Counted from the first letter of the stretch, positions 19,259-32,732 are shown. The stretch is 64,000 bases of DNA from Candidatus Hermodarchaeota archaeon (GCA_016839805.1 JAEOTO010000006.1:64001-128000), one strand, 5' to 3'. Made by a program: numbers and translations. The notes: generated from the letters alone by a model not told the origin.

Positions 19259-20509
19259 CTAAGACTTAGGTGTTGAACCTTCAACAAGGACTGTCTGTAC
19301 TGCTTCGGGAAACTCGATAGTGATGTCATTTCGAGTCACCTTTGATAACGACTTTTGAAGACGTTTTTGAAGAGTCTTCAGCTGTGAAGAAATCCTTTTG
19401 ATTTGTTCTTTATTATGAGTTAATTCCGATTTTACATCGCGATGTTCCCATTGCGCCCGTTCTAATGACTTTTCTAATTCCCGCCGCTCATCAGAAGACA
19501 CTGAAGCTTTCAAATCGGTTTTCCGTGACTCAAGATTAGTAAAACGATGCCGATACTCATCCAATGACCCTTTCTCACATATCTCCTCTTTACGCTCCAA
19601 CACTTTCCTTTCTAAGCTAGCTTTAAATTTGATTTTACTCCCTTGCAAAGCTTCTGCCAAGGCCCTCAATCCCGCCTTTAATTTCTCCAAGGATTCTGTA
19701 TCATTTTGAAAAGCCTGCCACGGATCTGCCGAATATGCATCAGCTCCTTCACCTGCTGTTGATGAAATCATCACAGCTCGTCCAGCAGCTTGACTTAATT
19801 TCTTGAACGGTTTTTTCAAAAAGTTCAGCTGGTTGGTGACAATCATCCGAACGCTGTCAATTTCCTTCCCAATCCCATCAATCTCATCCAGCCCTGAATC
19901 CATACGAAACTGCTCAATATCCCCCTTCTGTTCCTCAATCTTTCCTACCTTTTCCTCCTCCACCTTTTCAAGCTCAGACAATTGCTCTACCAACGACAAT
20001 AACTGACGAGACCTGTACTCAATCTCCTCTACTTCTCCCCCAATCTGATCCAATTGCTTCGGTACCTTTTCCTTCTCCCAAATCTTTCGAATCTTCTGGT
20101 AACTCTGTCCCACCACCCGAAACTGGTAATCAAACTCTTTGACAATCTTCTTATGGACTTTTGGCAACCGCGGAATATACCGTCTTCCAGCATCCGTAGC
20201 TTCGCGCAAATAGTCCTCTAAATCATCTAACAATTCCTGAACCGACGAATAGATAATTTCTTCAGGAATCATCATATCTTCAGCAATACTCTTTAACCGA
20301 CTTGACAACTTTGCCGCGGCTCCAGGCACTGTCAACTCTCCATCAATTACAACTTCTGCTAAAAGTTGATCCGAGGTTTCTACCGTCTTCGCCAAAGCGC
20401 CTTCAATCCGATCAGTTTGACGTTTAATGTCCGATCGATAGTTAAAGAGCAGCTCCTCAGCCCGCTTTTCAAACCATTCCGGTAATTCATATACACCAAT
20501 CGAAGTCAC
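19259..20509 (-). CDS. Helical/coiled-coil hypothetical protein
   Basis: 416 aa, E/K/L-rich heptads, GTG start with GAGGA SD. Confidence 0.8.
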   Translation of the reverse strand: MTSIGVYELPEWFEKRAEELLFNYRSDIKRQTDRIEGALAKTVETSDQLLAEVVIDGELTVPGAAAKLSSRLKSIAEDMMIPEEIIYSSVQELLDDLEDYLREATDAGRRYIPRLPKVHKKIVKEFDYQFRVVGQSYQKIRKIWEKEKVPKQLDQIGGEVEEIEYRSRQLLSLVEQLSELEKVEEEKVGKIEEQKGDIEQFRMDSGLDEIDGIGKEIDSVRMIVTNQLNFLKKPFKKLSQAAGRAVMISSTAGEGADAYSADPWQAFQNDTESLEKLKAGLRALAEALQGSKIKFKASLERKVLERKEEICEKGSLDEYRHRFTNLESRKTDLKASVSSDERRELEKSLERAQWEHRDVKSELTHNKEQIKRISSQLKTLQKRLQKSLSKVTRNDITIEFPEAVQTVLVEGSTPKS

Positions 20510-20672
20510 ACTGATATCCTCGCCTCACAAATCAGAAACAAGTATTAAAAAAACTACCTCAAAGAGAACCTTATACACCCCTACTACACCAAGCAATCCG
20601 CCAAAAAGCTTATCAGCGCCCTCCCATAGTCAACAATAGCAGAACCAACGCATCCTGGGATGTGAGCGGGCA

Positions 20673-21563
20673 ATTATCCATAACGCAATACTTTTCACCA
20701 TCAGCCCTCGCACAGACGAAGTCGGACTCCAAGCCAACGTCATCTTCCGCAAACAATACTGGCGCGTCGCCCTCAACGACGACATGATCCGCGAATTCCT
20801 CCGCGCCTACAAAGAATTCATGAGCCACGTCCAAAGTACCGACATCCCCACCCTCCCCATCCACATCCAAGGCGCCAAATACATCTTCACCAACATCGAA
20901 GACCTCCTCCTCGTCTTCATCAGCCACATGCAAGACGAAGACAACCGCGTCGCCGAAAAAGTCAAAACCGCCCTCCGCATGCTCGTCGGCAAATACGGCA
21001 CCGAACACATCAAAGAACTCGGCAACAACGACACCGCCGAACCCATCGAAGACCTCATTGACAACTACATCATGAGCAAACTCAAAGTCAGCCTCGTCGG
21101 CGAAGGCGGCGTCGGCAAAACCACCCTCCTCCGCCTCCTCAAAGGCAGCGCCCCACCCACCGAATACGTCCCCACCATCGCTCTCAGCATCGAACAAATC
21201 GAAGCCACCCGCTACGGAACCTACTCAATAATTTTATGGGACTTCGCAGGACAAGAGCGGTTTCGCCGGCTCTGGACCATTTATTTCAGGGGCTCAGACA
21301 TCGTATTCATCATCACCGACTCCACCCTCAACAACGTCATTGCCACAAAAGAAATCCTAGATGTCATCCGAAAAGACGCACCGGGTGTCCCTGTCTGGGC
21401 GATTGCCAACAAACAAGACCTCGAAGGCGCCCTCAGCCCCGAACTCGTCGAACGCATCCTCGGCATCCCCGCCTTCGGCATGGTCGCCATCGACCAAACC
21501 CGCAAAGAAGAAATGCTCCAAATTTTGCTCGATGCCGTCGATCGCTACATCGGGACGGAATAA
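20673..21563 (+). CDS. Longin-domain + Arf-like small GTPase (probable ATT start)
   Basis: GEGGVGKT, YVPTI, WDFAGQ, NKQD. Homology to the paralog at 25870 extends 37 codons upstream of ATG 20784. Confidence 0.9.
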   Translation: MIHNAILFTISPRTDEVGLQANVIFRKQYWRVALNDDMIREFLRAYKEFMSHVQSTDIPTLPIHIQGAKYIFTNIEDLLLVFISHMQDEDNRVAEKVKTALRMLVGKYGTEHIKELGNNDTAEPIEDLIDNYIMSKLKVSLVGEGGVGKTTLLRLLKGSAPPTEYVPTIALSIEQIEATRYGTYSIILWDFAGQERFRRLWTIYFRGSDIVFIITDSTLNNVIATKEILDVIRKDAPGVPVWAIANKQDLEGALSPELVERILGIPAFGMVAIDQTRKEEMLQILLDAVDRYIGTE

Positions 21564-21753
21564 AGACTATCACTTTAATTCAGACTAGTCACTTGTTTCA
21601 TGTAATTCTCCCAAGTACTCCGATAGAAATTCTAAGCGCATGTCTTGATCAGGCTTGGGTCATGGTCTTCCATCGTTGCGTAGGTTAAGCGGTGAACGCT
21701 TTTGTGTTGCCTCCTGCCATCAAGTTATAAGTTGGAACTTGAAAGGTAACTTT

Positions 21754-22110
21754 GTGACTGATCCGATGATTGTTTATTGTGGTCTTAACTGCAGTGAATG
21801 CCCTGCCTTTATTGCTTATCAAACTGATGATGATGCATTACGGAAAGAAACGGCGAAAAAGTGGTCAACACCGGATCATCCGGTTTCTGTTGAAGACATA
21901 AATTGTATGGGATGCAAATCAACGGAACCTCCTATCCATAGTTTTTGTTCAAAATGTGAAGTCCGAAGTTGTGCCATTGAACATGAGGTCGAAACTTGTA
22001 CCCATTGCCCAGAATACTCTTGTGAAAAACTCGATAAAATAATCGAAATGGTTGGCGATGAAGCAAGAAATCGACTCGAAAACATACGGAAACAGTTGTC
22101 TAAATCCTAA
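21754..22110 (+). CDS. DUF3795 Cys-rich (Fe-S/Zn) protein
   Basis: YCGLNCSECPA, CMGC, CEVRSCA..CTHCPEYSC; start trimmed to GTG after AAGGTAA. Confidence 0.88.
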   Translation: MTDPMIVYCGLNCSECPAFIAYQTDDDALRKETAKKWSTPDHPVSVEDINCMGCKSTEPPIHSFCSKCEVRSCAIEHEVETCTHCPEYSCEKLDKIIEMVGDEARNRLENIRKQLSKS

Positions 22111-22254
22111 ATTTGTTACCGAAAAAAACTGCTGAACTATTTGAGAGGAAGCCTTGTTGTTTGGGTGCTCTTTTTTCGGATTGGTTTATTCGAAATGAAT
22201 TTTATTGGCTAATAGGTGCGTCTTCTGAATTCGAAACGTGGAGAATGTATAAAG

Positions 22255-22671
22255 ATGGAACCAAGTAGGCTGGCTCGTCGGCTTGGAATGGCACTGATTG
22301 CCTGGAGTATTACAAGTATTGTTATTGGTTTGGTGTTACTGTTTGTTCCGATTAGTGTGCTTCAGGGGATTGGTCTACAAGCATTGCTGTGGGGTATTAT
22401 TGATGCTATAATCGCGGTGGTGGGGGTCTTCAGGAAGCAGGAGCAATCAGCGGACAAAGCGACGCGGTTTCTGAGAATTAACGTGTTTTTGGATGTCGGC
22501 TATCAGCTTGTGGGAATTCTGTTGATTGTGTTTTTGTGGCAAGATGCGTTCCTGTTAGGGAATGGGATTGGTATCATAATCCAAGGGGCGTTTTTGTTCG
22601 TATTGGATCTGTACTTTTACCGAAAATTTAGAAACATGGACATATCTACGCCTTCAAATAATGGAATGTGA
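22255..22671 (+). CDS. 4-TM membrane protein (DUF6992-like)
   Basis: WS..SI..G, WGIIDAIIA, INVFLDVGY, QGAFLFVLD. Confidence 0.75.
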   Translation: MEPSRLARRLGMALIAWSITSIVIGLVLLFVPISVLQGIGLQALLWGIIDAIIAVVGVFRKQEQSADKATRFLRINVFLDVGYQLVGILLIVFLWQDAFLLGNGIGIIIQGAFLFVLDLYFYRKFRNMDISTPSNNGM

Positions 22672-22775
22672 TTAAAAAATCCACAGCTTTAGCTCCGTAG
22701 TTGAAAAAAATAAGTCTGGAAGACGTCGGGTTGTTCTATTACAGATTTTTGTGCTAATTGTGACTTAGATTAAGT

Positions 22776-23351
22776 ATGGATAAGTTGTCAGAGCTTCCTG
22801 ATCGGCTTGAAGCAGAACGCGTAGTAGTTAGGCGTTACCAGCAAGGCGATGGCAAAGCGCTGTTCGCCCTTCTTGAACGGAATAATAATCGTGAGTTTCT
22901 TCACGCGAATGTGGAGGAGGTTGCCTCGCTTGCCACGGTGAGAGACGCAGAGACTAAGGTTCAACGGCATATCACTGAATGGGTAGCGCGAGAACGTTTT
23001 GTTATGGGAATCTGGTTAAAATCAGATCTGAACTATGTGGGAGAGATATGGATTGAACCAAAGCGATGGGAGGTTCCCTCCTTTGAACTGGGATGGTTTT
23101 TAGATCAAGGTTATCAGGGAAAGGGACTCGCCACTGAAGCAGCCAAGCGGGCGTTGGGATTCCTGTTTTCTGATTTACATGCCCACAAAGTCATTGTCAT
23201 TACACGGGATACGAACCAAAGAAGCGCGAAATTAGCTGAGCGTTTAGGATTTACAAAAGAGGGACATTTTCGTGAATGCAGAGCAGAAAATGGCATTCAC
23301 TATGGTCTGGTCTATTATGGACTGCTCAAAACAGAATTTTCCCATGAATAA
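22776..23351 (+). CDS. RimJ/RimL-family GNAT acetyltransferase
   Basis: ELGWFL...YQGKGLATEA, NQRSAKLAERLGFTKEG. Confidence 0.93.
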   Translation: MDKLSELPDRLEAERVVVRRYQQGDGKALFALLERNNNREFLHANVEEVASLATVRDAETKVQRHITEWVARERFVMGIWLKSDLNYVGEIWIEPKRWEVPSFELGWFLDQGYQGKGLATEAAKRALGFLFSDLHAHKVIVITRDTNQRSAKLAERLGFTKEGHFRECRAENGIHYGLVYYGLLKTEFSHE

Positions 23352-23452
23352 TACTCCAGTGACAAAGAGTTGACTTCAAACACATTTACGACTTCCGTGT
23401 GAATAATTACGTATTTGTAATCACCGACTGCTAGCCCTTATCCTAAAAAGGA

Positions 23453-24118
23453 ATGGTGAGTAGAATTATTGGGGAGACTCTTTTGTCTATTGGAAATGTT
23501 GATGGGCTTATCCAAGAGTGGAGAAGAGATAAAAAGCGGAGGTCTAGGAGGGGAACGTTTGCTCAGGATCCGAAGGGCTACCAGCAGTTCGTTGCTACAG
23601 TAGCGGGTCAATATCTTCCAAAGATCAGAGCTTTCCTTACGTCGGATTACCATGATCGAAAAGCGGCTCTTAAGACGTGGAGAGAGCTTATCGCTGAGTT
23701 TGGGGAGGATATGAGGATGTTGGATGCATTTGATCCAACTGGTAACACTCAGTTCTTCGCTGCCATTGTCACTGCTCAGGGAGCCCTGCGAGATAAGGAG
23801 GCTAAGAAGGCATTTGAGCAATCGAAAAAAGAGCCTAGTGACGCCTTCGGGAATCCTGAATTCATCAGCAGTATAGCAGCTTCAATCGACACAATTCTCG
23901 ATCAGACGTTCCATGCGATGCGGGGGATGATTGGCAAGGATTTACGGCGCTCATTGATTAGAAAAGCTTCCCAGAAGCTGCATAATACCTTAGCACAAGG
24001 ATTGGTTGAAGCCATTAATGATCTAACTGCTCTTCTTCTCCCCTCGTTGGTCATTGTAGAAATGGAATTAGAGAAATTCCACATTAAGAAACTGAAGGTT
24101 CCTGAACGGGGTCAGTGA
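23453..24118 (+). CDS. Hypothetical helical protein
   Basis: 221-aa ORF, AAGGA upstream, no motif recognised. Confidence 0.7.
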   Translation: MVSRIIGETLLSIGNVDGLIQEWRRDKKRRSRRGTFAQDPKGYQQFVATVAGQYLPKIRAFLTSDYHDRKAALKTWRELIAEFGEDMRMLDAFDPTGNTQFFAAIVTAQGALRDKEAKKAFEQSKKEPSDAFGNPEFISSIAASIDTILDQTFHAMRGMIGKDLRRSLIRKASQKLHNTLAQGLVEAINDLTALLLPSLVIVEMELEKFHIKKLKVPERGQ

Positions 24119-24648: not shown

Positions 24649-24828
24649 GATTCTTCTTCAAGATAATCAGCCAAAAAGTGACATTTTCGGATTCAGTATC
24701 TCGGAATGAATGCACCTAATCCGCTATAAGTGCAAAAACCTTTTCTGCGCCGTTTCTTAACGTTGGTTGAAGCCAAGACATTGAACTTGATTTGGTCTAC
24801 ACAATTCCAGGCTAGAAGGTGAGTTATC

Positions 24829-25848
24829 ATCCCTCGGGGGCTCGTATTAAGTCATTGGGATACTAAGGAAGGATTAGAAATTTTAGCGAAATTTCCGACC
24901 TCCCTGGACTTCGATGTTGAACATCTATCCATGATGTTTTACAGCTGTGCCCTAGAAGAGCCTGGAACCGTTTTTCAAGTATTTCCAACTAAAGATGTGA
25001 CAGAAAGGGCAGCAATCACCTGTACACGGACCATCCGAGATGGAGTCGAAGACGACTTCTGTATCACCGCGTTGCTCACTTCCGAAGAAGAGGGATCTGC
25101 TTATGAAGCAATCCTCAACTCTACTCTAAAACGAATTTTAAATGCGAAAAGTGATTCTCCCAAACGTTCACGCCGCTATCGACAAATTCTCTCAGATAGC
25201 TATCGCAAAATTGAACGGCGGGGTGGTTCACGTGACCGCTCATTGTGTCCCTACAAATATGAACGACCAGTCAAGGGTGATAAACTCACCTCCTATTGCC
25301 GTGTCGTGAAAAAACAATGCTATCTCACCATTTACGAAATGTCGGGTTATCCCCAATGTCCCCGGTATATTCGGCGTGAACGGCAAATCCAACTCGCTAA
25401 TGCCCGACGATTAGTACGTGCTGGCATCAACCGTATTCTCGAAGAATACGATCAAGAACGACAAAAGTCTAAAAAGCATAAACCAGGAGCCTGGAGCGAA
25501 CCGGTTCACGCCATCCTCGAGAGGCTATTCGCCATTCTCTCAGTTTCTCCTGAAACTGAAAACTACTCCCACCGTATTGTTGAACATGTTGGCAAAGAAG
25601 GGTTTTTCCAGGGGCATCCTCGTCCAATTATAGCCGCATCAATTGCTTATTATAGTGCCAAACAGACCGGTGATTCCTTACCCGAAAACGATATAATCGA
25701 ACTTGTGGGATGTTCCCGTACTTCCCTACGTCGAAATTACAGGGAACTCCGAAACCTCCTCGGTTCGGACGATAAAAAACTCCCGCAGCATAAACGACGT
25801 CAGCGTCGCACATCAAGACGAGAAAAAGCCGCTACTCGTGCAGAATAA
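24829..25848 (+). CDS. uDENN/longin-like domain fused to a TFB/TFIIB cyclin repeat (probable ATC start)
   Basis: N-terminus IPRGLVLSHWDTKEG..I...FP aligns with 27518; C-terminus GHPRPIIAASIAY...VGCSRTSLRRNYREL aligns with TFB repeat 2. Confidence 0.75.
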   Translation: MPRGLVLSHWDTKEGLEILAKFPTSLDFDVEHLSMMFYSCALEEPGTVFQVFPTKDVTERAAITCTRTIRDGVEDDFCITALLTSEEEGSAYEAILNSTLKRILNAKSDSPKRSRRYRQILSDSYRKIERRGGSRDRSLCPYKYERPVKGDKLTSYCRVVKKQCYLTIYEMSGYPQCPRYIRRERQIQLANARRLVRAGINRILEEYDQERQKSKKHKPGAWSEPVHAILERLFAILSVSPETENYSHRIVEHVGKEGFFQGHPRPIIAASIAYYSAKQTGDSLPENDIIELVGCSRTSLRRNYRELRNLLGSDDKKLPQHKRRQRRTSRREKAATRAE

Positions 25849-25869
25849 AACACAGGAGAATTAACTCGC

Positions 25870-26739
25870 ATGATTCACAACGTCTTCATCATGACCCGCG
25901 AAGGACGCATGGCCTTCCACCGTCAATACTGGTCCGTCGATATCACCACCGAAGATCGACAAGAATTCGTCGCCACTTACAAACACTTCGAAAAAGACCT
26001 CGGAGCCACCGTCGACCTCCCCATACATGTTAAAAACAACAAATTCATCTACACCGATGCTGGCACTCACCTCCTCCTCGTTTTCGCCGTTGACATCTCC
26101 GACGAAGACGAAAAAATCCGAGAACTCCTCAAAAAAACTCGCGAACTCCTCATCGACAAATACGGTCACGAAATCGACGCCTACATCCAAAAACCCGCTC
26201 CCCTAGGCCAAGCCTTCCAAGGCTTCGAAAAAGAACTCGACAGCGTCATCGTCACCATGCTCAAAATCTGCCTCCTTGGTCAAGGTGGCGTCGGCAAATC
26301 CACCATGCTCAAACTACTAACCGCCGACAGCATCCCCGGCGAATACTACCCCACCATCGCCGTCGACATCGAAACCCTCCAAGGCGTGCGCTTTGGCCCC
26401 TACGAACTCGCCGTCTGGGACTTCGCAGGACAAGACCGCTTCCGCTCCCTCTGGAACTACTACCTCCGGAACGCAGACGCCGTCTTACTCGTCACCGATT
26501 CCACCTTGAAAAATGTCTTAGAAACCCGTGATATTTTAGAAATCGTCCGCAAGAATGCACCCGCCTGCATTGCCTGGGCCATTGCCAACAAACAAGACCT
26601 CCCCGGCGCCCTCGCCCCCAAACTCGTCCAACGCATCCTCGGCGTCCAAGCCTACGGCCTCGTCGCCATCGACCCTCGCTATCGCGAAACCCTCTACAAA
26701 ATCATCCTCGGCGCCGTCGCTGAAGCCACCACCGATTAA
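25870..26739 (+). CDS. Longin-domain + Arf-like small GTPase
   Basis: MIHNVFIMTREG longin start; GQGGVGKS, WDFAGQ, NKQD. Confidence 0.92.
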   Translation: MIHNVFIMTREGRMAFHRQYWSVDITTEDRQEFVATYKHFEKDLGATVDLPIHVKNNKFIYTDAGTHLLLVFAVDISDEDEKIRELLKKTRELLIDKYGHEIDAYIQKPAPLGQAFQGFEKELDSVIVTMLKICLLGQGGVGKSTMLKLLTADSIPGEYYPTIAVDIETLQGVRFGPYELAVWDFAGQDRFRSLWNYYLRNADAVLLVTDSTLKNVLETRDILEIVRKNAPACIAWAIANKQDLPGALAPKLVQRILGVQAYGLVAIDPRYRETLYKIILGAVAEATTD

Positions 26740-26747
26740 ACAGTGAA

Positions 26748-27281
26748 TTATCCCTTTTTTAGCTGGTTTCGTTTTAATTGGATACCTACCATAGGAATTA
26801 TGGTGATAGTTCCCATTAAAAGAAATACGGCTGCAGATAAAACATATGGAGTTAGTAACATCAGGAGGGCTCCGGTCACAAAGACCATTATAATGATCAG
26901 CATGGCTGCGATCCAAAACCCCGGGAGTTCATGCTTGGACACATACTGCATTCGCCATAACGCCCAAACCAGATGAACCACGGCAAACATGACAAACCAC
27001 CCTAGAATATAATCCAACCACGGAATCACATCCATCGGTAACCATCCATACGCAACCCATGAATACGGGCTCAACAAAATAAAAGCTCCAGATACAAGAG
27101 CCCCTCCAATCCATGTAGCTAGAGCCAACGGCACAAACAACCATTTACTCCACCTTTCCACCTCCCTCCCGCCCAACGTCGGTCGAAGTAACCAATTAAC
27201 CCACAAAGTAAACCCCCAACTCCCAAGTAAAATACAAACAAATGGAAGAAAGAACGTTAAACCCGGAATCACATTCAACAT
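26748..27281 (-). CDS. Multi-pass membrane protein
   Basis: About 5 hydrophobic segments; CAGGAG before the start. Confidence 0.75.
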   Translation of the reverse strand: MLNVIPGLTFFLPFVCILLGSWGFTLWVNWLLRPTLGGREVERWSKWLFVPLALATWIGGALVSGAFILLSPYSWVAYGWLPMDVIPWLDYILGWFVMFAVVHLVWALWRMQYVSKHELPGFWIAAMLIIIMVFVTGALLMLLTPYVLSAAVFLLMGTITIIPMVGIQLKRNQLKKG

Positions 27282-27517
27282 CTCCTGAAACCAATTTCTA
27301 TTCCTTCATTCAAATATCCGTTGGTGTCGACAATTCAACCTAGTAAAACAGTTCTTATCCCGTTTAGATAAAGAAAGCAGCAACGAATATACACGAAACG
27401 GCAACGACGACAAACAAGTTAAATACGGGAAATCCGATAGTCAAAACGAAGTGCCAATAGGTCACTTTAAGTAATAAAGCTACAGGAAACTTTTAACCAA
27501 ACGGGAGGCTAAAAGAA

Positions 27518-29095
27518 TTGCCACGTGGTTTATCAGTCTGCAGGTGGGACGATAAAGTTGGCCTGCGTATTGTGGGTGTGTACCCGCGGAACCTAGAGGT
27601 TTCTGAGGATGATATGTTACGTGTTTTTACGGCGCACGCTATGGGTAAGCCGGAAGCTGGTTTTCTCACTATGACTCTTGAAGGAACGAACCTGGCGGTA
27701 GCGTCTTTTTACACTGGCATTCTCCGTGGGCGTGATCAGTTTTGTATTATGATGTTTATGGATTTGGATGAAGAACCGCGGAGTTTTGAAGAGGGGTTGA
27801 CGCTTGCGTCGAGTGAGATTGTGGAGAATATTGGTGAGCCGGAGTTTGTTGAGTATCTGGGTGAAGTGTTTGAGAAGCTGAAGCGGATGGTGGAGCTGTC
27901 CGTGGAGCAGCGGCTTGCTAAGGTGTTTGTGGATCAGGAAACGCGGTTGTTGATGCATAAGTTGGCTCGTGGTGGTATTTCCGCAGAAGAGCTCCGGGAA
28001 TGGCTTGAGTTACAGACAGGGAAGCATTACCCCGATTTAGGGCTAGTAACTCTGCCTTTGTTACGAAGTGGACTAGTGGAAGAGGATTGGATTAACGCGG
28101 TGTCAGACAACTGTGTCTTTCTAGTAAACGATTTGTTGGGTGCACGGTTTCCGCCAGAGCAGGTGATTAAACTTGCTAAAGGTGGCGGGTTAAACAAGGA
28201 GCAATACAACGAATTAGAAACGCGTGTGAAGAGTTTCTTTGAGGGTTATCAGTGGACTGAAGAAGATACGATTATTATTGGTCAGTTGCTGCTAGATCCG
28301 GATATTTATGACGTGACGAAGACGTTACGGCGGAAAATTGCGCATAAATCCGAGTTGGCGGGAGTGGTCGAAAAGGAAGCATCATTGGATAATGTGCTTC
28401 GACGTCTAGAGCAGGTACAAGTGATTACGAAATTTGGTGAAAATGCTGTTGACGTAGCTGCTAACGACGATCCGTTGATTGTGTTAATGGCGGATGTACA
28501 CTTTGAGTCTTTCTTCCCGGAATTTCTAGTATTGCGTATTCAGGAACGGTTAGAGGCTAAGGATATTCATCCGGATATTGCGAAGCGGCATCTAGAGTTG
28601 CTTAGTGAAATGTATATGCGTATGCGAGAGAAGATGAAAGAACGCAAGAAGCGAAAGAAGGAAGAGGAAGAAGAGGAACTTCCTGAAATCGAAGCTGAAA
28701 TGGTTCACCCGCCCGAAGTCGCTGAGGAGGAACCTCTAGAAACCGCTGAAATGCCTCCACTTGACGAAAAAGAAGCGAAACGCATTCGAAAAGAGGAGGA
28801 GAAAGCACGTAAGGAAGAGGAAAAACGTCTAAAAGTCGAGGAGAAGAAGCGGAAGAAGGAAGAGGCGCAAAAGAAGAAGGAAGAGGAGAAGCAGAAGAAA
28901 GAGGAAGAGAAGCGTCGCAAGGAAGAGGAGAAGCAGAAGAAGGAAGAGGCGCAAAAGAAGAAGGAAGAGGAGAAGCAGAAGAAAGAGGAAGAGAAGCGTC
29001 GCAAGGAAGAGGAGAAGCAGAAGAAAAAGGAAAAAGAGAAGAAGCAAAAAGAGGAAAAAAAGAAAGAAAAGGAACCTGAAGCTGAGGCTACCTAA
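27518..29095 (+). CDS. uDENN/longin-like + two winged helices + K/E-rich single-alpha-helix tail
   Basis: WDDKVG..I.GVYP longin motif; LLRSGLV and LEQVQVI wHTH ends; GGGAGG SD, TTG start. Confidence 0.8.
   Translation: MPRGLSVCRWDDKVGLRIVGVYPRNLEVSEDDMLRVFTAHAMGKPEAGFLTMTLEGTNLAVASFYTGILRGRDQFCIMMFMDLDEEPRSFEEGLTLASSEIVENIGEPEFVEYLGEVFEKLKRMVELSVEQRLAKVFVDQETRLLMHKLARGGISAEELREWLELQTGKHYPDLGLVTLPLLRSGLVEEDWINAVSDNCVFLVNDLLGARFPPEQVIKLAKGGGLNKEQYNELETRVKSFFEGYQWTEEDTIIIGQLLLDPDIYDVTKTLRRKIAHKSELAGVVEKEASLDNVLRRLEQVQVITKFGENAVDVAANDDPLIVLMADVHFESFFPEFLVLRIQERLEAKDIHPDIAKRHLELLSEMYMRMREKMKERKKRKKEEEEEELPEIEAEMVHPPEVAEEEPLETAEMPPLDEKEAKRIRKEEEKARKEEEKRLKVEEKKRKKEEAQKKKEEEKQKKEEEKRRKEEEKQKKEEAQKKKEEEKQKKEEEKRRKEEEKQKKKEKEKKQKEEKKKEKEPEAEAT
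28852..29025 (+). repeat. Perfect 84-bp tandem duplication (28 aa, KKEEAQKKKEEEKQKKEEEKRRKEEEKQ x2)
   Basis: GAGGCGCAA recurs at 28862 and 28946 and the intervening units are identical. Confidence 0.9.
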
Positions 29096-31315: not shown

Positions 31316-32732
31316 AACTTGTTTGCAAGTTCTCACTTTTCAAGGCGGGATTAAATTGACCCAAGACCAGCAGACTGAAAAACAACGAATACGGTCATAT
31401 CCTTAGAATGCGCCCGCTGCCACTCACCCGGAAAATTCGCATCTTTCCCACACCCCAACAAGAATACGTTCTGTGGGCCCTATCCGAGAAATGCCGTCTT
31501 CTCTACAACTTTGCCTTGGTTGAACGACAGCAATATTGGGAAGCCAACCGGACGAAACCACCCGAGGCGCGCACTTATATAACCTACATAAAGCAGCAAA
31601 ATGACCTTCCAACCATCAAAGAACAGTATCCCGAATACGCCTGGGTTTATTCCAAGGTTCTCCAGATGGTCTTACGACGCTTGGATGCCGACTACAAGTC
31701 CTTCTATGCCCGCTGGAACAATGGTGATCACCACGCACGTCCACCCCGTTTCAAAGGCAAGCAGTATTTCACCACCCTTTGCTACAACCAATCGGGATTT
31801 ACCATTGACATAGAAAATAAGCGGATCCGCCTCTCCCACAATCACCCCTCCGGTGTGGAACTCCTATTTGACCTACCATGGCTAACAAAAATTACAGGCA
31901 AGGTCAAACAGGTAGAACTCTTTCAGGATCGGCGACGTAGGTGGTTCGTAGCTATCACTACTGACGAGACGGTACCTGCCTATGTGGACAACGGGTTATA
32001 CCAAGCAATCGATTTGGGCATCGTTAATCTGGTCACCGCCGTTAACCTCCACGGCAAGTTCGTGCAGATTCGGAATCGTCGCCCTGACCGCTATTGGCGG
32101 TCAAAGATTCGGGAGGTGCAATCGAAACGCGACCATTGTAAACAATTTAGCAAAAAATGGTACTGGTATACTGTCAAATTACAAAAGATGCAACGCAAAC
32201 TGACCAATCAGTTGCGCGACTTCCAACACAAAATCTCTAAGTGCATCGTGGAAAATACCCGGGCCAATACACTTGTTCTCGGTGCTCTGGACATCAAAGC
32301 AATGGCGCGAAAGAAAAAAATCATAGCTAGTCCACGAGTAATTAAGGCCTATAGGACTTTGAACCATTCGCTGCAGAATACAGGGTTCTTGGGGCGCTTC
32401 GCCGAATTCTTGACCTACAAGGCACAGAAAGTAGGGAAAAGAGTGATAAGAATTGACGAAGCGTACACCACGAAAACTTGTTGTGTCTGTGGTAAGATCC
32501 GAGATCGGCAATTGTCTGAGCGCCGTATTCAGTGCGATTGTGGAACCCCTCTTGACCGTGACCAGAACGCGGCGGTCAACATCATGGTACGGTTCCTATC
32601 GCAGCAACCCCCTGTGAACGGGGAGCCATTACAAACTTTCTTGAATGGCTTGCATCGACACACAGCCTTACCCCACCTCCACCGGGTAACGGACTCGATG
32701 GAAGTTCCTGCATTAATGCAGGGATAGTTCAC
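31316..32732 (+). mobile_element. tnpB-only IS200/IS605 (IS1341-like) element
   Basis: Right end: GAAG + hairpin 32705-32724 + TCAC. Degenerate left hairpin 31331-31350 preceded by AAGT, which predicts a TTAA target (TTTAA at 31311-31315). No tnpA. Confidence 0.8.
31408..32727 (+). CDS. tnpB: RNA-guided endonuclease TnpB (rearranged RuvC-II type)
   Basis: CRLLYNFAL, PRFKG, AIDLG (RuvC-I), LVLG...IDEAYTT, CCVCG/CDCG, DRDQNAAVNI (RuvC-III). Confidence 0.95.
   Translation: MRPLPLTRKIRIFPTPQQEYVLWALSEKCRLLYNFALVERQQYWEANRTKPPEARTYITYIKQQNDLPTIKEQYPEYAWVYSKVLQMVLRRLDADYKSFYARWNNGDHHARPPRFKGKQYFTTLCYNQSGFTIDIENKRIRLSHNHPSGVELLFDLPWLTKITGKVKQVELFQDRRRRWFVAITTDETVPAYVDNGLYQAIDLGIVNLVTAVNLHGKFVQIRNRRPDRYWRSKIREVQSKRDHCKQFSKKWYWYTVKLQKMQRKLTNQLRDFQHKISKCIVENTRANTLVLGALDIKAMARKKKIIASPRVIKAYRTLNHSLQNTGFLGRFAEFLTYKAQKVGKRVIRIDEAYTTKTCCVCGKIRDRQLSERRIQCDCGTPLDRDQNAAVNIMVRFLSQQPPVNGEPLQTFLNGLHRHTALPHLHRVTDSMEVPALMQG

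What the first reader, a model, noticed from the sequence alone, without database searches (positions are those of the whole stretch)
24829..29095. Candidate GTPase-to-transcription module: longin-TFB-cyclin fusion next to a longin-GTPase and a uDENN-like protein
Seen: 24829-25848 joins a uDENN/longin-like domain, a 4-Cys linker and a single TFB C-terminal cyclin repeat including its HTH (IIELVGCSRTSLRRNYREL). It has no N-terminal TFB Zn ribbon or first repeat. A longin-Arf-like GTPase starts 21 nt downstream with its own SD, and a paralogous longin-wHTH-wHTH protein follows within 0.8 kb. Knowledge: longin/DENN domains heterodimerise and act as GEF/GAP platforms, and the TFB C-terminal repeat contacts TBP and the BRE. 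Inference: a small-GTPase switch wired directly to a basal-transcription-factor fragment. I know of no described system with this architecture.
Basis: partly seen in the sequence, partly recalled or inferred. Interest (0 to 1): 0.8.

Follow-up and report, generated by a model that had tools for sequence, protein, structure and literature searches.

The report
Longin–TFB-repeat fusion in GTPase operon
One family of Asgard archaea carries a conserved gene that joins a GTPase-regulator (longin) domain to a four-cysteine module and a single DNA-reading repeat from the basal transcription factor TFB. It sits in an operon with an Arf-like GTPase, which hints at, but does not prove, a direct line from a GTPase switch to gene control.

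Summary
Gene A (24829-25848) encodes three parts:
- an NPRL2/FLCN/C9orf72-type longin domain (VIA Z 13-14);
- a basic module with four invariant cysteines;
- one cyclin repeat that is specifically the second, HTH-bearing repeat of TFB. The profile search gives E down to 3e-11, and every non-family hit I checked is TFIIB. VIA Z is 14.4-14.7.

A has no Zn ribbon and no first repeat, so it is not a TFB.

A is followed after 21 nt by B, an Arf-like GTPase with a sigma-adaptin/longin-like N-terminus. C follows 778 nt after B. Its longin domain is a clear paralogue of A's (hhalign E 1e-20), and winged-helix domains come after it.

Full-length A occurs in 19 of 19 genomes of one GTDB family and in 0 of 381 other genomes sampled from the phylum. 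A and B are adjacent in 15 of 15 loci. The C family is wider and lacks these neighbours elsewhere.

A starts at a conserved AUC/AUU codon, so database entries are N-terminally truncated.

GTPase binding, DNA binding and any link to transcription remain untested inference. The scan has found this family before in other genomes. I found no paper describing it.

The parts
24692..24777 (+). Three conserved non-coding blocks upstream of A, at 24692-24707, 24730-24748 and 24763-24777. They are candidate promoter, operator or leader elements.
   Evidence: Alignment of 13 orthologous upstream regions shows near-invariant blocks in otherwise diverged DNA. There is no Rfam match. The first block is not repeated as a regulon motif in the genome.
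24815..24831 (+). Shine-Dalgarno-like GAAGGTGA, a 6-nt spacer, and the near-cognate start codon ATC (24829-24831) of gene A.
   Evidence: The start position is ATC in 11 and ATT in 4 of 15 orthologous loci, never ATG/GTG/TTG, and always 6 nt after GAAGGTG(A/T).
24829..25221 (+). Gene A, residues 1-131: longin domain of the NPRL2/FLCN/SMCR8/C9orf72 type, with invariant W10-D11-x3-G15.
   Evidence: AF2 model. Foldseek top hits are 8yqg (2.9e-4), FNIP2 and GATOR1/SEA-complex chains. VIA Z 14.0 to 8yqg_B and 13.3-13.4 to GATOR1 chains 9o5d_D and 9o5a_H. Atlas hits are NPRL2 and SMCR8 clusters. Motif invariance is shown.
25222..25467 (+). Gene A, residues 132-213: invariant R-R-G-G-x-R loop, a four-cysteine module (C140, C157, C164, C177) and a long basic helix. 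Probably a metal site, possibly nucleic-acid binding.
   Evidence: The cysteines are invariant in 27 and 19 sequences. Mean pairwise identity is 0.69-0.72 and pI 9.5-11.2. There is no Pfam match.
25468..25773 (+). Gene A, residues 214-315: a single cyclin repeat derived from the second (C-terminal) TFB repeat, with its helix-turn-helix.
   Evidence: The exhaustive profile search gave 127 non-family hits, essentially all on profile positions ~190-315. The 10 checked are all PF00382. The genome's own TFBs score 10-22 bits on repeat 2 against -2 to 7 on repeat 1. VIA Z 14.7 to 1d3u_B and 14.4 to 1ais_B. Alignment.
25774..25848 (+). Gene A, residues 316-339 plus stop: disordered K/R-rich tail. It is present in genus g1 and replaced by a neutral or acidic tail in genus g2.
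   Evidence: pLDDT is about 40. Mean pairwise identity is 0.32 and pI 11.6. Alignment.
25870..26739 (+). Gene B (289 aa): sigma-adaptin/longin-like N-terminal domain (residues 1-125) fused to an intact Arf-like GTPase (130-289). It has a P-loop, switch-I Thr, the DxxGQ catalytic Gln and NKQD.
   Evidence: Pfam Arf 4.9e-20. PDB Arf1/2 2.8e-21. Motifs are invariant. For the N-terminus, Clat_adaptor_s hits 10 of 11 orthologues and AP-1 sigma-3 residues 1-98 match at E 0.06.
27518..29095 (+). Gene C (525 aa, TTG start): longin domain paralogous to A's (1-126), then winged-helix-like domains and a long helix (129-386), then a K/E-rich low-complexity tail (387-525).
   Evidence: hhalign against A gives 99.3%, E 1e-20. 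AF2 pLDDT 79, pTM 0.74. VIA Z 13.2 to 8yqg and 12.6 to GATOR1 chain 9o5a_H. Foldseek gives MarR/ArsR-type matches. Atlas gives NPRL2 and HxlR wHTH clusters.
20673..21563 (+). Gene D: second longin-like Arf-like GTPase, 44% identical to B. It starts at near-cognate ATT 20673, not at ATG 20784.
   Evidence: Pfam Arf 1.4e-18. Alignment to B. The start position is ATT, ATA or ACG in 17 of 17 orthologous loci.
19259..20509 (-). Gene E (416 aa): coiled-coil protein of no known family, divergent partner of D. The E-D pair abuts A in genus g2.
   Evidence: No Pfam hit above threshold. Found in 18 of 19 family genomes. It lies next to D-A-B in G108, G109, G110 and L004.

Best explanation
Gene A is a lineage-specific chimera made in the ancestor of one Asgard family. 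The longin domain of the older, more widespread protein C was duplicated. It was joined, through a basic module with four invariant cysteines (probably a metal site), to a copy of the second cyclin repeat of TFB. That repeat carries the helix-turn-helix which reads the BRE in genuine TFB.

A is co-transcribed and closely coupled with B, an Arf-like GTPase that has its own longin-like N-terminal domain. C follows on the same strand, and a second GTPase (D) with a coiled-coil partner (E) belongs to the wider set.

Most likely mechanism: the NPRL2/FLCN/C9orf72-type longin domains of A and C pair, as such domains do in GATOR1, folliculin and C9orf72-SMCR8. Together they form the platform that binds the GTPase domain of B and/or D in a nucleotide-dependent way, as regulator (GAP or GEF) or as effector. 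The TFB-derived HTH, helped by the basic Cys4 module, gives that complex a DNA-directed output. That output could be occupying BRE-like sites, competing with TFB, or tethering the complex to particular promoters. Low-level synthesis is set by the conserved AUC/AUU start codon.

Shown: domain identities, paralogy, conservation, gene order, start codon.
Inferred: longin pairing, GTPase binding, DNA binding, and the direction of signalling.
For: Longin fold of the GAP-complex type: VIA Z 13-14 over about 130 residues to 8yqg and GATOR1 chains; Foldseek hits to FNIP2, GATOR1, SEA complex, Lst4 and DENND1A; Atlas NPRL2 and SMCR8 clusters.

Invariant W10-D11-x3-G15 in both A and C, including distant Loki homologues. 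It has the spacing of the essential W33-D34...G38-P39 of C9orf72 (PMC12290439).

A and C longins are paralogues: hhalign E 1e-20.

Cyclin domain equals TFB repeat 2. The HTH region is the most conserved part of A (0.75 mean identity). It keeps the T/S-x-R-x-x-Y-R/K-E-L pattern of the genome's own TFBs.

Basic Cys4 module and helix: pI 9.5-11.2.

Operon: the A-B gap is 21-25 nt, or a 4-nt overlap in L004. They are adjacent in 15 of 15 loci, with C downstream wherever the locus reaches.

A-B-C stay together while the upstream context differs between genera.

B is an intact GTPase with catalytic Gln, the kind that uses an external GAP.

Longin-GTPase fusions are a recognised Asgard architecture (PMC10933270).
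Against: There is no experimental or computational evidence of contact between A and B or between A and C.

All carriers belong to one family whose whole neighbourhood is collinear, so conserved adjacency is only modest evidence of functional coupling.

Outside this family, C homologues are not next to GTPases or A-like genes.

The GP motif that marks GAP longins reads G-L/I here. No arginine finger could be assigned: R60 is invariant in A but absent from C, and C has R/K72 at a different position.

The C-terminal winged-helix-like domains of NPRL2/NPRL3 serve protein contacts, not DNA binding (recalled). A borrowed HTH fold therefore need not bind DNA.

A lone second repeat lacks the first repeat, which makes most TBP contacts (recalled).

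B's N-terminal domain shows no sequence similarity to the A/C longins.
Confidence: 0.45

Rival explanations
1. GTPase-regulatory scaffold only. A and C are subunits of a GATOR1/folliculin-like GAP or GEF complex for B and D. The cyclin repeat of A and the winged-helix domains of C are protein-protein modules, as in NPRL2/NPRL3. There is no DNA output.
For: The nearest named structural relatives of both A and C are NPRL2, SMCR8 and FNIP2. C's longin plus winged-helix layout resembles NPRL2/3. Cyclin folds are widely used for protein binding: cyclin/CDK matches reach Z 12-13.
Against: The repeat is specifically TFB-like at sequence level, not generically cyclin-like. Its recognition-helix stretch is the most conserved part of the protein and still resembles that of the genome's own TFBs. 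It is flanked by strongly basic segments.
Confidence: 0.3
2. GTPase-independent transcription factor. A is a TFB-derived repressor or decoy that occupies BRE-like sites, and its longin domain serves only for dimerisation or ligand sensing. Its position next to B is inherited gene order.
For: The genome holds at least five TFB-type genes, so TFB diversification is active here. The HTH is conserved. Conserved non-coding blocks upstream of A could be an autoregulatory operator. The whole region is collinear within the family.
Against: A-B spacing of 21-25 nt, or a 4-nt overlap, on one strand in 15 of 15 loci argues for co-expression. The longin subtype is the one that works on small GTPases, and four longin-type domains and two GTPases cluster here.
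Confidence: 0.12
3. Metal or redox sensor. The four invariant cysteines hold an Fe-S cluster or a redox-sensitive Zn site whose state controls the neighbouring HTH, in the manner of WhiB-like or Zn-redox switches. This could coexist with any of the other readings.
For: The four cysteines are invariant, with unusual spacing (x16, x6, x12) and two C-P pairs rather than CxxC knuckles. The module is among the most conserved parts of A. It matches no known Zn-ribbon family.
Against: No homology to any known sensor. The AF2 confidence here is only 62-77. A structural Zn site explains the data equally well.
Confidence: 0.1

Closest known systems
Eukaryotic longin-domain GAP complexes: NPRL2-NPRL3 (GATOR1), FLCN-FNIP, C9orf72-SMCR8
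   Same: The longin fold is of the same subtype (Z 12-14). Two paralogous longin proteins are encoded together with Arf/Rag-like GTPases. W-D-x3-G has the spacing of the C9orf72 WD and GP motifs. C has longin followed by winged-helix-like domains, as in NPRL2/3.
   Different: There is no detectable sequence homology. G-P is replaced by G-L/I. No arginine finger could be assigned. There is no DENN domain. A carries a TFB repeat and a Cys4 module in its place. The client GTPases themselves carry a longin-like domain. Activity is unknown.
Archaeal TFB / eukaryotic TFIIB, second cyclin repeat with the BRE-reading HTH (PDB 1AIS, 1D3U)
   Same: Significant sequence homology confined to this repeat. 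The structure superposes at Z 14.4-14.7 and rmsd 1.7-2.4 A. The recognition-helix pattern is conserved.
   Different: There is no Zn ribbon, B-reader/linker or first repeat, so A cannot act as an initiation factor. The window protein does not reach Pfam's TFIIB threshold. Several recognition-helix positions differ and are fixed in the family, for example T298 where TFBs have V.
Asgard longin- or roadblock-GTPase fusions and Asgard 'FLCN/SMCR8-type' longins (Tran et al. 2024, PMC10933270; Traffic 2025, PMC12290439)
   Same: B and D fit the published class of Arf/Rag-like GTPases fused to a longin domain. A and C fit the idea of GAP-type longins already present in Asgard archaea.
   Different: Tran et al. 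state that MK-D1 GTPase genes generally do not lie in operons with longin or roadblock genes. Here they do. Neither paper mentions a cyclin or TFIIB fusion; both terms occur zero times.
FLCN-Rag-TFEB/TFE3 axis of animals (functional analogy only)
   Same: A longin GAP complex and a small GTPase decide the activity of a transcription factor.
   Different: In animals the link is indirect, through lysosomal recruitment and phosphorylation of a separate bHLH factor. Here the DNA-reading domain would sit on the longin protein itself. This analogy is recalled, not tested.

Membership tests
TFB/TFIIB | N-terminal Zn ribbon (PF08271) | tested here: not met
   No Zn_Ribbon_TF hit. Residues 1-131 are a longin fold. 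The four cysteines at 140-177 have no CxxC knuckles and match no family.
TFB/TFIIB | Two tandem cyclin repeats | tested here: not met
   The model has one five-helix repeat at 214-315. TFB hits match profile positions ~190-315 only.
TFB/TFIIB | Second repeat with the BRE-reading helix-turn-helix | tested here: met
   The genome's own TFBs score 10-22 bits on repeat 2 against -2 to 7 bits on repeat 1. VIA Z 14.4-14.7. The conserved recognition-helix pattern is shown.
TFB/TFIIB | Reaches Pfam PF00382 gathering score | tested here: not met
   The window protein has only Cyclin_C at 13.4 bits (cut-off 22) and no PF00382 hit. One homologue, P0025, carries a precomputed PF00382.
Longin-domain GAP subunits (FLCN, NPRL2, SMCR8, C9orf72 and partners) | Longin fold of this subtype | tested here: met
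   A: Z 13.3-13.4 to GATOR1 chains, 129 residues aligned, rmsd 2.8 A. C: Z 12.3-12.6. Atlas NPRL2 and SMCR8 clusters.
Longin-domain GAP subunits (FLCN, NPRL2, SMCR8, C9orf72 and partners) | GP motif before beta-2, and the WD motif in C9orf72 | tested here: inconclusive
   W10, D11 and G15 are invariant in A and C, with the C9orf72 spacing. The residue after G is L or I, never P. The motif definition comes from PMC12290439.
Longin-domain GAP subunits (FLCN, NPRL2, SMCR8, C9orf72 and partners) | Catalytic arginine finger | tested here: inconclusive
   R60 is invariant in A but not in C. C has R/K72 just before beta-5. No residue-level superposition on FLCN R164, NPRL2 R78 or SMCR8 R147 was possible with these tools.
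Longin-domain GAP subunits (FLCN, NPRL2, SMCR8, C9orf72 and partners) | Heterodimer of two longin proteins that stimulates GTP hydrolysis by an Arf/Rag GTPase | not testable with these tools
   The paralogous pair A/C and the GTPases B/D are encoded together. Binding and activity need biochemistry.
Arf-family GTPase (gene B) | G1-G4 motifs with catalytic Gln, and best similarity to Arf | tested here: met
   GxxxxGKS, switch-I T162, WDxAGQ (Q188) and NKQD are invariant. Pfam Arf 4.9e-20. PDB Arf2/Arf1 2.8e-21.
Arf-family GTPase (gene B) | N-terminal amphipathic helix for membrane binding | tested here: not met
   The GTPase core begins at about residue 130. It is preceded by a ~125-residue sigma-adaptin/longin-like domain.

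The most novel reading that the evidence does not exclude
A direct small-GTPase-to-promoter switch. The nucleotide state of the Arf-like GTPase B (or D) is read by an NPRL2/FLCN-type longin pair (A with C). This frees or blocks A's TFB-derived HTH, which then occupies BRE-like DNA and competes with or redirects the basal factor TFB. That would be a one-complex archaeal counterpart of the eukaryotic Rag/folliculin-to-TFEB logic. It would also be the first assigned GTPase-regulator-output set in Asgard archaea.
Probability: 0.25. Interest if true: 0.85.

Novelty: new variant of a known kind. Interest (0 to 1): 0.62.

Why it matters
Asgard archaea encode dozens of small GTPases and longin or roadblock proteins, but hardly any GTPase has been matched to a regulator or to an output. 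The published view is that gene order does not help (PMC10933270).

This locus is an exception. Two Arf-like GTPases and two GAP-type longin proteins are encoded together in every member of one family, and one of the longin proteins carries a recognisable DNA-reading domain.

That gives a small, clonable set of proteins with which to ask three questions:
- Did the NPRL2/FLCN-type longin pair already act on Arf/Rag-like GTPases before eukaryotes?
- Is it a GAP or a GEF?
- Can a GTPase switch act directly on the archaeal basal transcription machinery?

It also shows a practical point. [quoted passage not shown]

Tried and rejected
Complex prediction. Complex prediction on A (alignment A3) with B (alignment A4) gave no verdict: ipSAE 0.00 and 0.24 against a mark of 0.32, and the controls were not run. 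It counts neither for nor against binding.

Sequence searches that found nothing useful:
- A profile of the A+C longin domains against PDB found nothing relevant, so the link to eukaryotic longins is structural only.
- Pfam scans of the isolated longin, Cys4 and C-terminal C segments gave no hit even at E 10.
- hhalign of B's N-terminal domain against the A or C longins gave probability 0.1%. B's domain is not a close relative of theirs.

Upstream DNA:
- Rfam on the conserved upstream region gave only a chance-level sR7 match.
- Block 1 of the upstream region occurs twice in the genome, about the chance number, so it is not a regulon motif. My pattern for block 2 was mis-specified for this genome's one-base-shorter T run and matched nothing, not even the window. 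That search is uninformative.
- RNAalifold on 10 leaders proposes that ACCUUUU (block 2) pairs with the GGAAGGU Shine-Dalgarno sequence. Both sides are invariant, there is no covariation, and the energy is only -4.6 kcal/mol.

Neighbours. Gene E is not homologous to the ~410-430-aa gene near the C homologues of Loki/Hel genomes. The Atlas look-up of E gave only unnamed archaeal clusters.

Literature:
- 'longin + Asgard + TFIIB' and 'Roadblock-Longin + Asgard + GTPase' each returned no paper.
- A search for the TFIIB BRE-contact residues found no useful paper, so those residue equivalences stay recalled knowledge.
- No supplementary files are held for the Traffic 2025 paper.

Rejected reading: artefact or pseudogene. 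The frame is open and conserved, with synonymous changes, in 19 genomes.

Full report
**What is there**

The region holds three co-directional genes. I call them A (24829-25848), B (25870-26739) and C (27518-29095). A second GTPase gene D (20673-21563) and its divergent partner E (19259-20509, minus strand) lie 3-5 kb upstream. The ORF list starts A at ATG 24931, but the frame is open from the stop at 24820-24822. The 34 codons before that ATG read I-P-R-G-L...W-D-x-K-x-G-L, matching the N-terminus of C residue for residue. No ATG, GTG or TTG is available there.

**Start codon**

In 15 orthologous loci from 14 other genomes plus this one, the codon at that position is ATC (11 loci) or ATT (4 loci). 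It always lies 6 nt after GAAGGTG(A/T). The downstream codons differ by synonymous changes, so this stretch is coding. Most database entries for this family are N-terminally truncated. D behaves the same way: at the position aligned with B's Met, 17 of 17 orthologues have ATT, ATA or ACG.

**Domains of A**

The AF2 model built on 27 homologues has mean pLDDT 78. It shows these segments:
- Residues 1-131: a five-strand, three-helix longin fold.
- Residues 132-139: a low-confidence loop carrying the invariant R-R-G-G-x-R.
- Residues 140-177: a beta-hairpin and short helix carrying C140, C157, C164 and C177.
- Residues 178-213: a long helix.
- Residues 214-315: five helices forming one cyclin repeat.
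- Residues 316-339: a disordered basic tail.

The four cysteines are invariant in every homologue.

For the longin part, Foldseek's best matches are a Lokiarchaeal Roadblock-Longin protein (8yqg, E 2.9e-4), FNIP2, and SEA-complex and GATOR1 chains. For the C-terminal part the best match is Pyrococcus TFB (1ais_B, rmsd 1.2 A over 87 columns). VIA-align gives Z 14.7 (1d3u_B) and 14.4 (1ais_B) for residues 215-315. It gives Z 14.0 (8yqg_B) and 13.3-13.4 (GATOR1 chains 9o5d_D and 9o5a_H, 129 residues, rmsd 2.8 A) for residues 1-132. The ESM Atlas search names NPRL2 and SMCR8 clusters for the N-terminal part and TFIIB clusters for the C-terminal part.

**The cyclin repeat is TFB's second repeat**

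Single-sequence searches are weak: Pfam Cyclin_C E 0.08 and PDB TFIIB E 0.08. An exhaustive profile search of 1.84 billion representative proteins is much clearer. It found one full-length cluster, three fragments of the same family, and 127 other proteins. Essentially all of these matched only on profile positions ~190-315, with E down to 3e-11. The ten I scanned are all PF00382 TFIIB proteins.

An HMM of A's C-terminal domain was run against this genome's own TFB genes, of which at least five exist, including a tandem pair. It scored repeat 2 at 20.9, 21.8, 12.6 and 10.0 bits, against 5.6, 4.2, 6.8 and -1.8 bits for repeat 1. The alignment shows the shared G-x-P, A-A and G positions. It also shows the recognition-helix pattern T/S-x-R-x-x-Y-R/K-E-L.

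This HTH stretch has the highest mean pairwise identity within the family (0.75). The Cys4 module scores 0.72, the basic helix 0.69, the longin domain 0.52 and the tail 0.32. The segments around the HTH are strongly basic, with pI 9.5-11.2.

A has no Zn ribbon, no B-reader/linker and no first repeat. It contains a TFB-derived domain but is not a TFB.

**Gene C and the paralogy with A**

C has no Pfam hit. Its model (pLDDT 79, pTM 0.74) is built as follows:
- Residues 1-126: a longin domain (Z 13.2 to 8yqg_A, 12.6 to GATOR1 chain 9o5a_H).
- Next, helical and winged-helix-like domains. Foldseek matches MarR/ArsR-type regulators, and the Atlas names an HxlR wHTH cluster over residues 120-361 and NPRL2 clusters over the whole length.
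- A long helix.
- A K/E-rich tail.

Profile-profile comparison of the A and C longin domains gives 99.3% probability and E 1e-20 over 123 columns. Across A, C and the distant C homologues of Loki-type genomes, the invariant positions are P2, G4, W10, D11, K13, G15, P23, A41, F49, E87, L96 and L121.

W-D-x3-G has exactly the spacing of W33-D34...G38-P39 of C9orf72. A 2025 survey describes those residues as essential or specific to GAP-type longins, and reports them also in some Asgard longins (PMC12290439). Here the residue after the glycine is Leu or Ile, not Pro. I could not assign an arginine finger. R60 is invariant in A only, and C has R/K72 just before beta-5. By my recollection of the sequences, the NPRL2 and FLCN fingers sit at that position, but this is a lead and not a test.

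**The GTPases**

B has all the G motifs, including the catalytic Gln. It is most similar to Arf1/Arf2 (2.8e-21; Pfam Arf 4.9e-20).

Its first ~125 residues match the sigma-adaptin family below threshold but consistently. That family has a longin fold. Ten of 11 orthologues hit it, with best E 6.5e-4, and the domain aligns from residue 1. This fits the published Asgard class of Arf/Rag-like GTPases fused to a longin domain (PMC10933270). The domain shows no sequence similarity to the A/C longins.

D is 44% identical to B over its full length.

**Distribution and gene order**

A search of 400 genomes of the phylum found full-length A in all 19 genomes of one GTDB family. That is 15 of 15 genomes in one genus, counting this one, and 4 of 4 in the other. 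It was found in none of the 381 other genomes; hits there are ordinary TFBs or C-type longin proteins. Earlier notes of this scan name the family Hermodarchaeaceae. I did not verify that name.

A-B adjacency holds in 15 of 15 loci, and C follows wherever the locus is long enough. The A-B gap is 21-25 nt with GGAG before B's ATG, and in L004 the genes overlap by 4 nt.

Within the same genomes A evolves faster than its neighbours. Against this genome, same-genus orthologues of A are typically 73-77% identical, against roughly 88-92% for B and 89-96% for C.

C has homologues at 30-36% identity in Loki- and Hel-type genomes and in a further family of the phylum. There it lies next to the L11-L1-L10-L12 ribosomal-protein genes or thymidylate kinase, with no A-like gene beside it. 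An Arf/Rag-like GTPase gene lies nearby in only one of those loci.

A is therefore a family-level invention. A C-type longin domain was duplicated and joined to a TFB repeat.

The E-D pair abuts A in the second genus and in L004. In this genus it lies 4 kb to more than 20 kb away or on other contigs.

One caution applies. Within the family the whole neighbourhood through RNase HII, a VTT-domain protein, an OB-fold protein and DNA ligase is collinear. Conserved order alone is therefore modest evidence. The tight spacing and the changing upstream context add some weight.

**How it probably works**

What is shown is an architecture and a conserved operon. The main reading (about 0.45) is that the A and C longins pair, bind B and/or D in a nucleotide-dependent way, and give the complex a DNA-directed output through A's TFB-derived HTH and basic Cys4 module. 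The full mechanism is set out under Best explanation, and the evidence on each side is listed there.

The rivals are:
- a GTPase-regulatory scaffold with no DNA role (0.3);
- a GTPase-independent TFB-derived factor (0.12);
- a Cys4 metal or redox sensor that could overlay either (0.1).

By recalled knowledge of the TBP-TFB-DNA structures, the second repeat reads the BRE while TBP is held mainly by the first repeat. I therefore do not expect this fragment to recruit TBP by itself.

**Known or new**

Longin-GTPase fusions and GAP-type longins in Asgard archaea are published. A longin-Cys4-TFB-repeat protein is not mentioned in any paper I could find. NCBI names the truncated entries 'cyclin family protein'.

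The scan has met this family before in other genomes, and those follow-ups reached similar conclusions. This report adds four things:
- the family-wide tally;
- the repeat-1 versus repeat-2 test against the genome's own TFBs;
- the conserved near-cognate start codons of both A and D;
- the conserved upstream blocks.

I class it as a new variant (a new architecture) of known kinds. Interest is moderate to high because it offers a rare, testable GTPase-regulator-output set. It is tempered by the narrow distribution and the absence of any functional evidence.

Noticed in passing
window 24815-24831, and loci L001, L003, L004, L014-L025: Gene A starts at a near-cognate codon conserved across the family: ATC in 11 loci and ATT in 4, 6 nt after GAAGGTG(A/T). 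Public gene calls begin at internal ATG or GTG codons and lose the first longin strands.
   Followed up: yes
window 20655-20790, and loci L004, L028-L045: GTPase gene D also starts at a near-cognate codon (ATT 20673 here). Across 17 orthologues it is ATT, ATA or ACG, never a canonical start, about 7 nt after a GGTG/GATG-type motif. Whether such starts are common throughout this genome was not tested.
   Followed up: partly
window 24692-24707, 24730-24748, 24763-24777: Three near-invariant non-coding blocks lie upstream of A in otherwise diverged intergenic DNA. RNAalifold pairs ACCUUUU of the second block with the Shine-Dalgarno GGAAGGU. There is no covariation, and nothing shows whether these are promoter, operator or leader elements.
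   Followed up: partly
window 26748-27281 (minus strand): A 177-aa hydrophobic ORF with no Pfam family sits between B and C. In most relatives B and C are only about 200 nt apart with no such ORF, and L003 has a different 117-aa minus-strand gene there.
   Followed up: partly
window 31408-32727: A TnpB/IS605 OrfB-type gene (Cas12f1-like TNB 1.4e-20, OrfB_IS605, HTH_OrfB_IS605) is inserted between the OB-fold gene and DNA ligase. Those two genes are directly adjacent in L001-L004.
   Followed up: partly
G000 contigs C21, C26, C27, C42 (loci L007-L010): The genome holds at least five TFB-type genes, including two in tandem on C21 (stop-to-stop frames of 324 and 363 aa).
   Followed up: partly
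window 28676-29092: C ends in a long K/E-rich repetitive tail, possibly a single alpha-helix. Its length varies widely among orthologues, and it is replaced by a different extension in Loki-type homologues.
   Followed up: no
window 25216-25245 (A residues 130-139): An invariant R-R-G-G-x-R motif with nearly invariant S134 lies in the only low-confidence loop between the longin domain and the Cys4 module. Its role is unknown; it could be a hinge, a nucleic-acid contact or a modification site.
   Followed up: no
window 20001-24000: GC skew swings from -0.25 (20-22 kb) to +0.20 (22-24 kb) within 4 kb. First readers also noted this as strand-composition patches.
   Followed up: no
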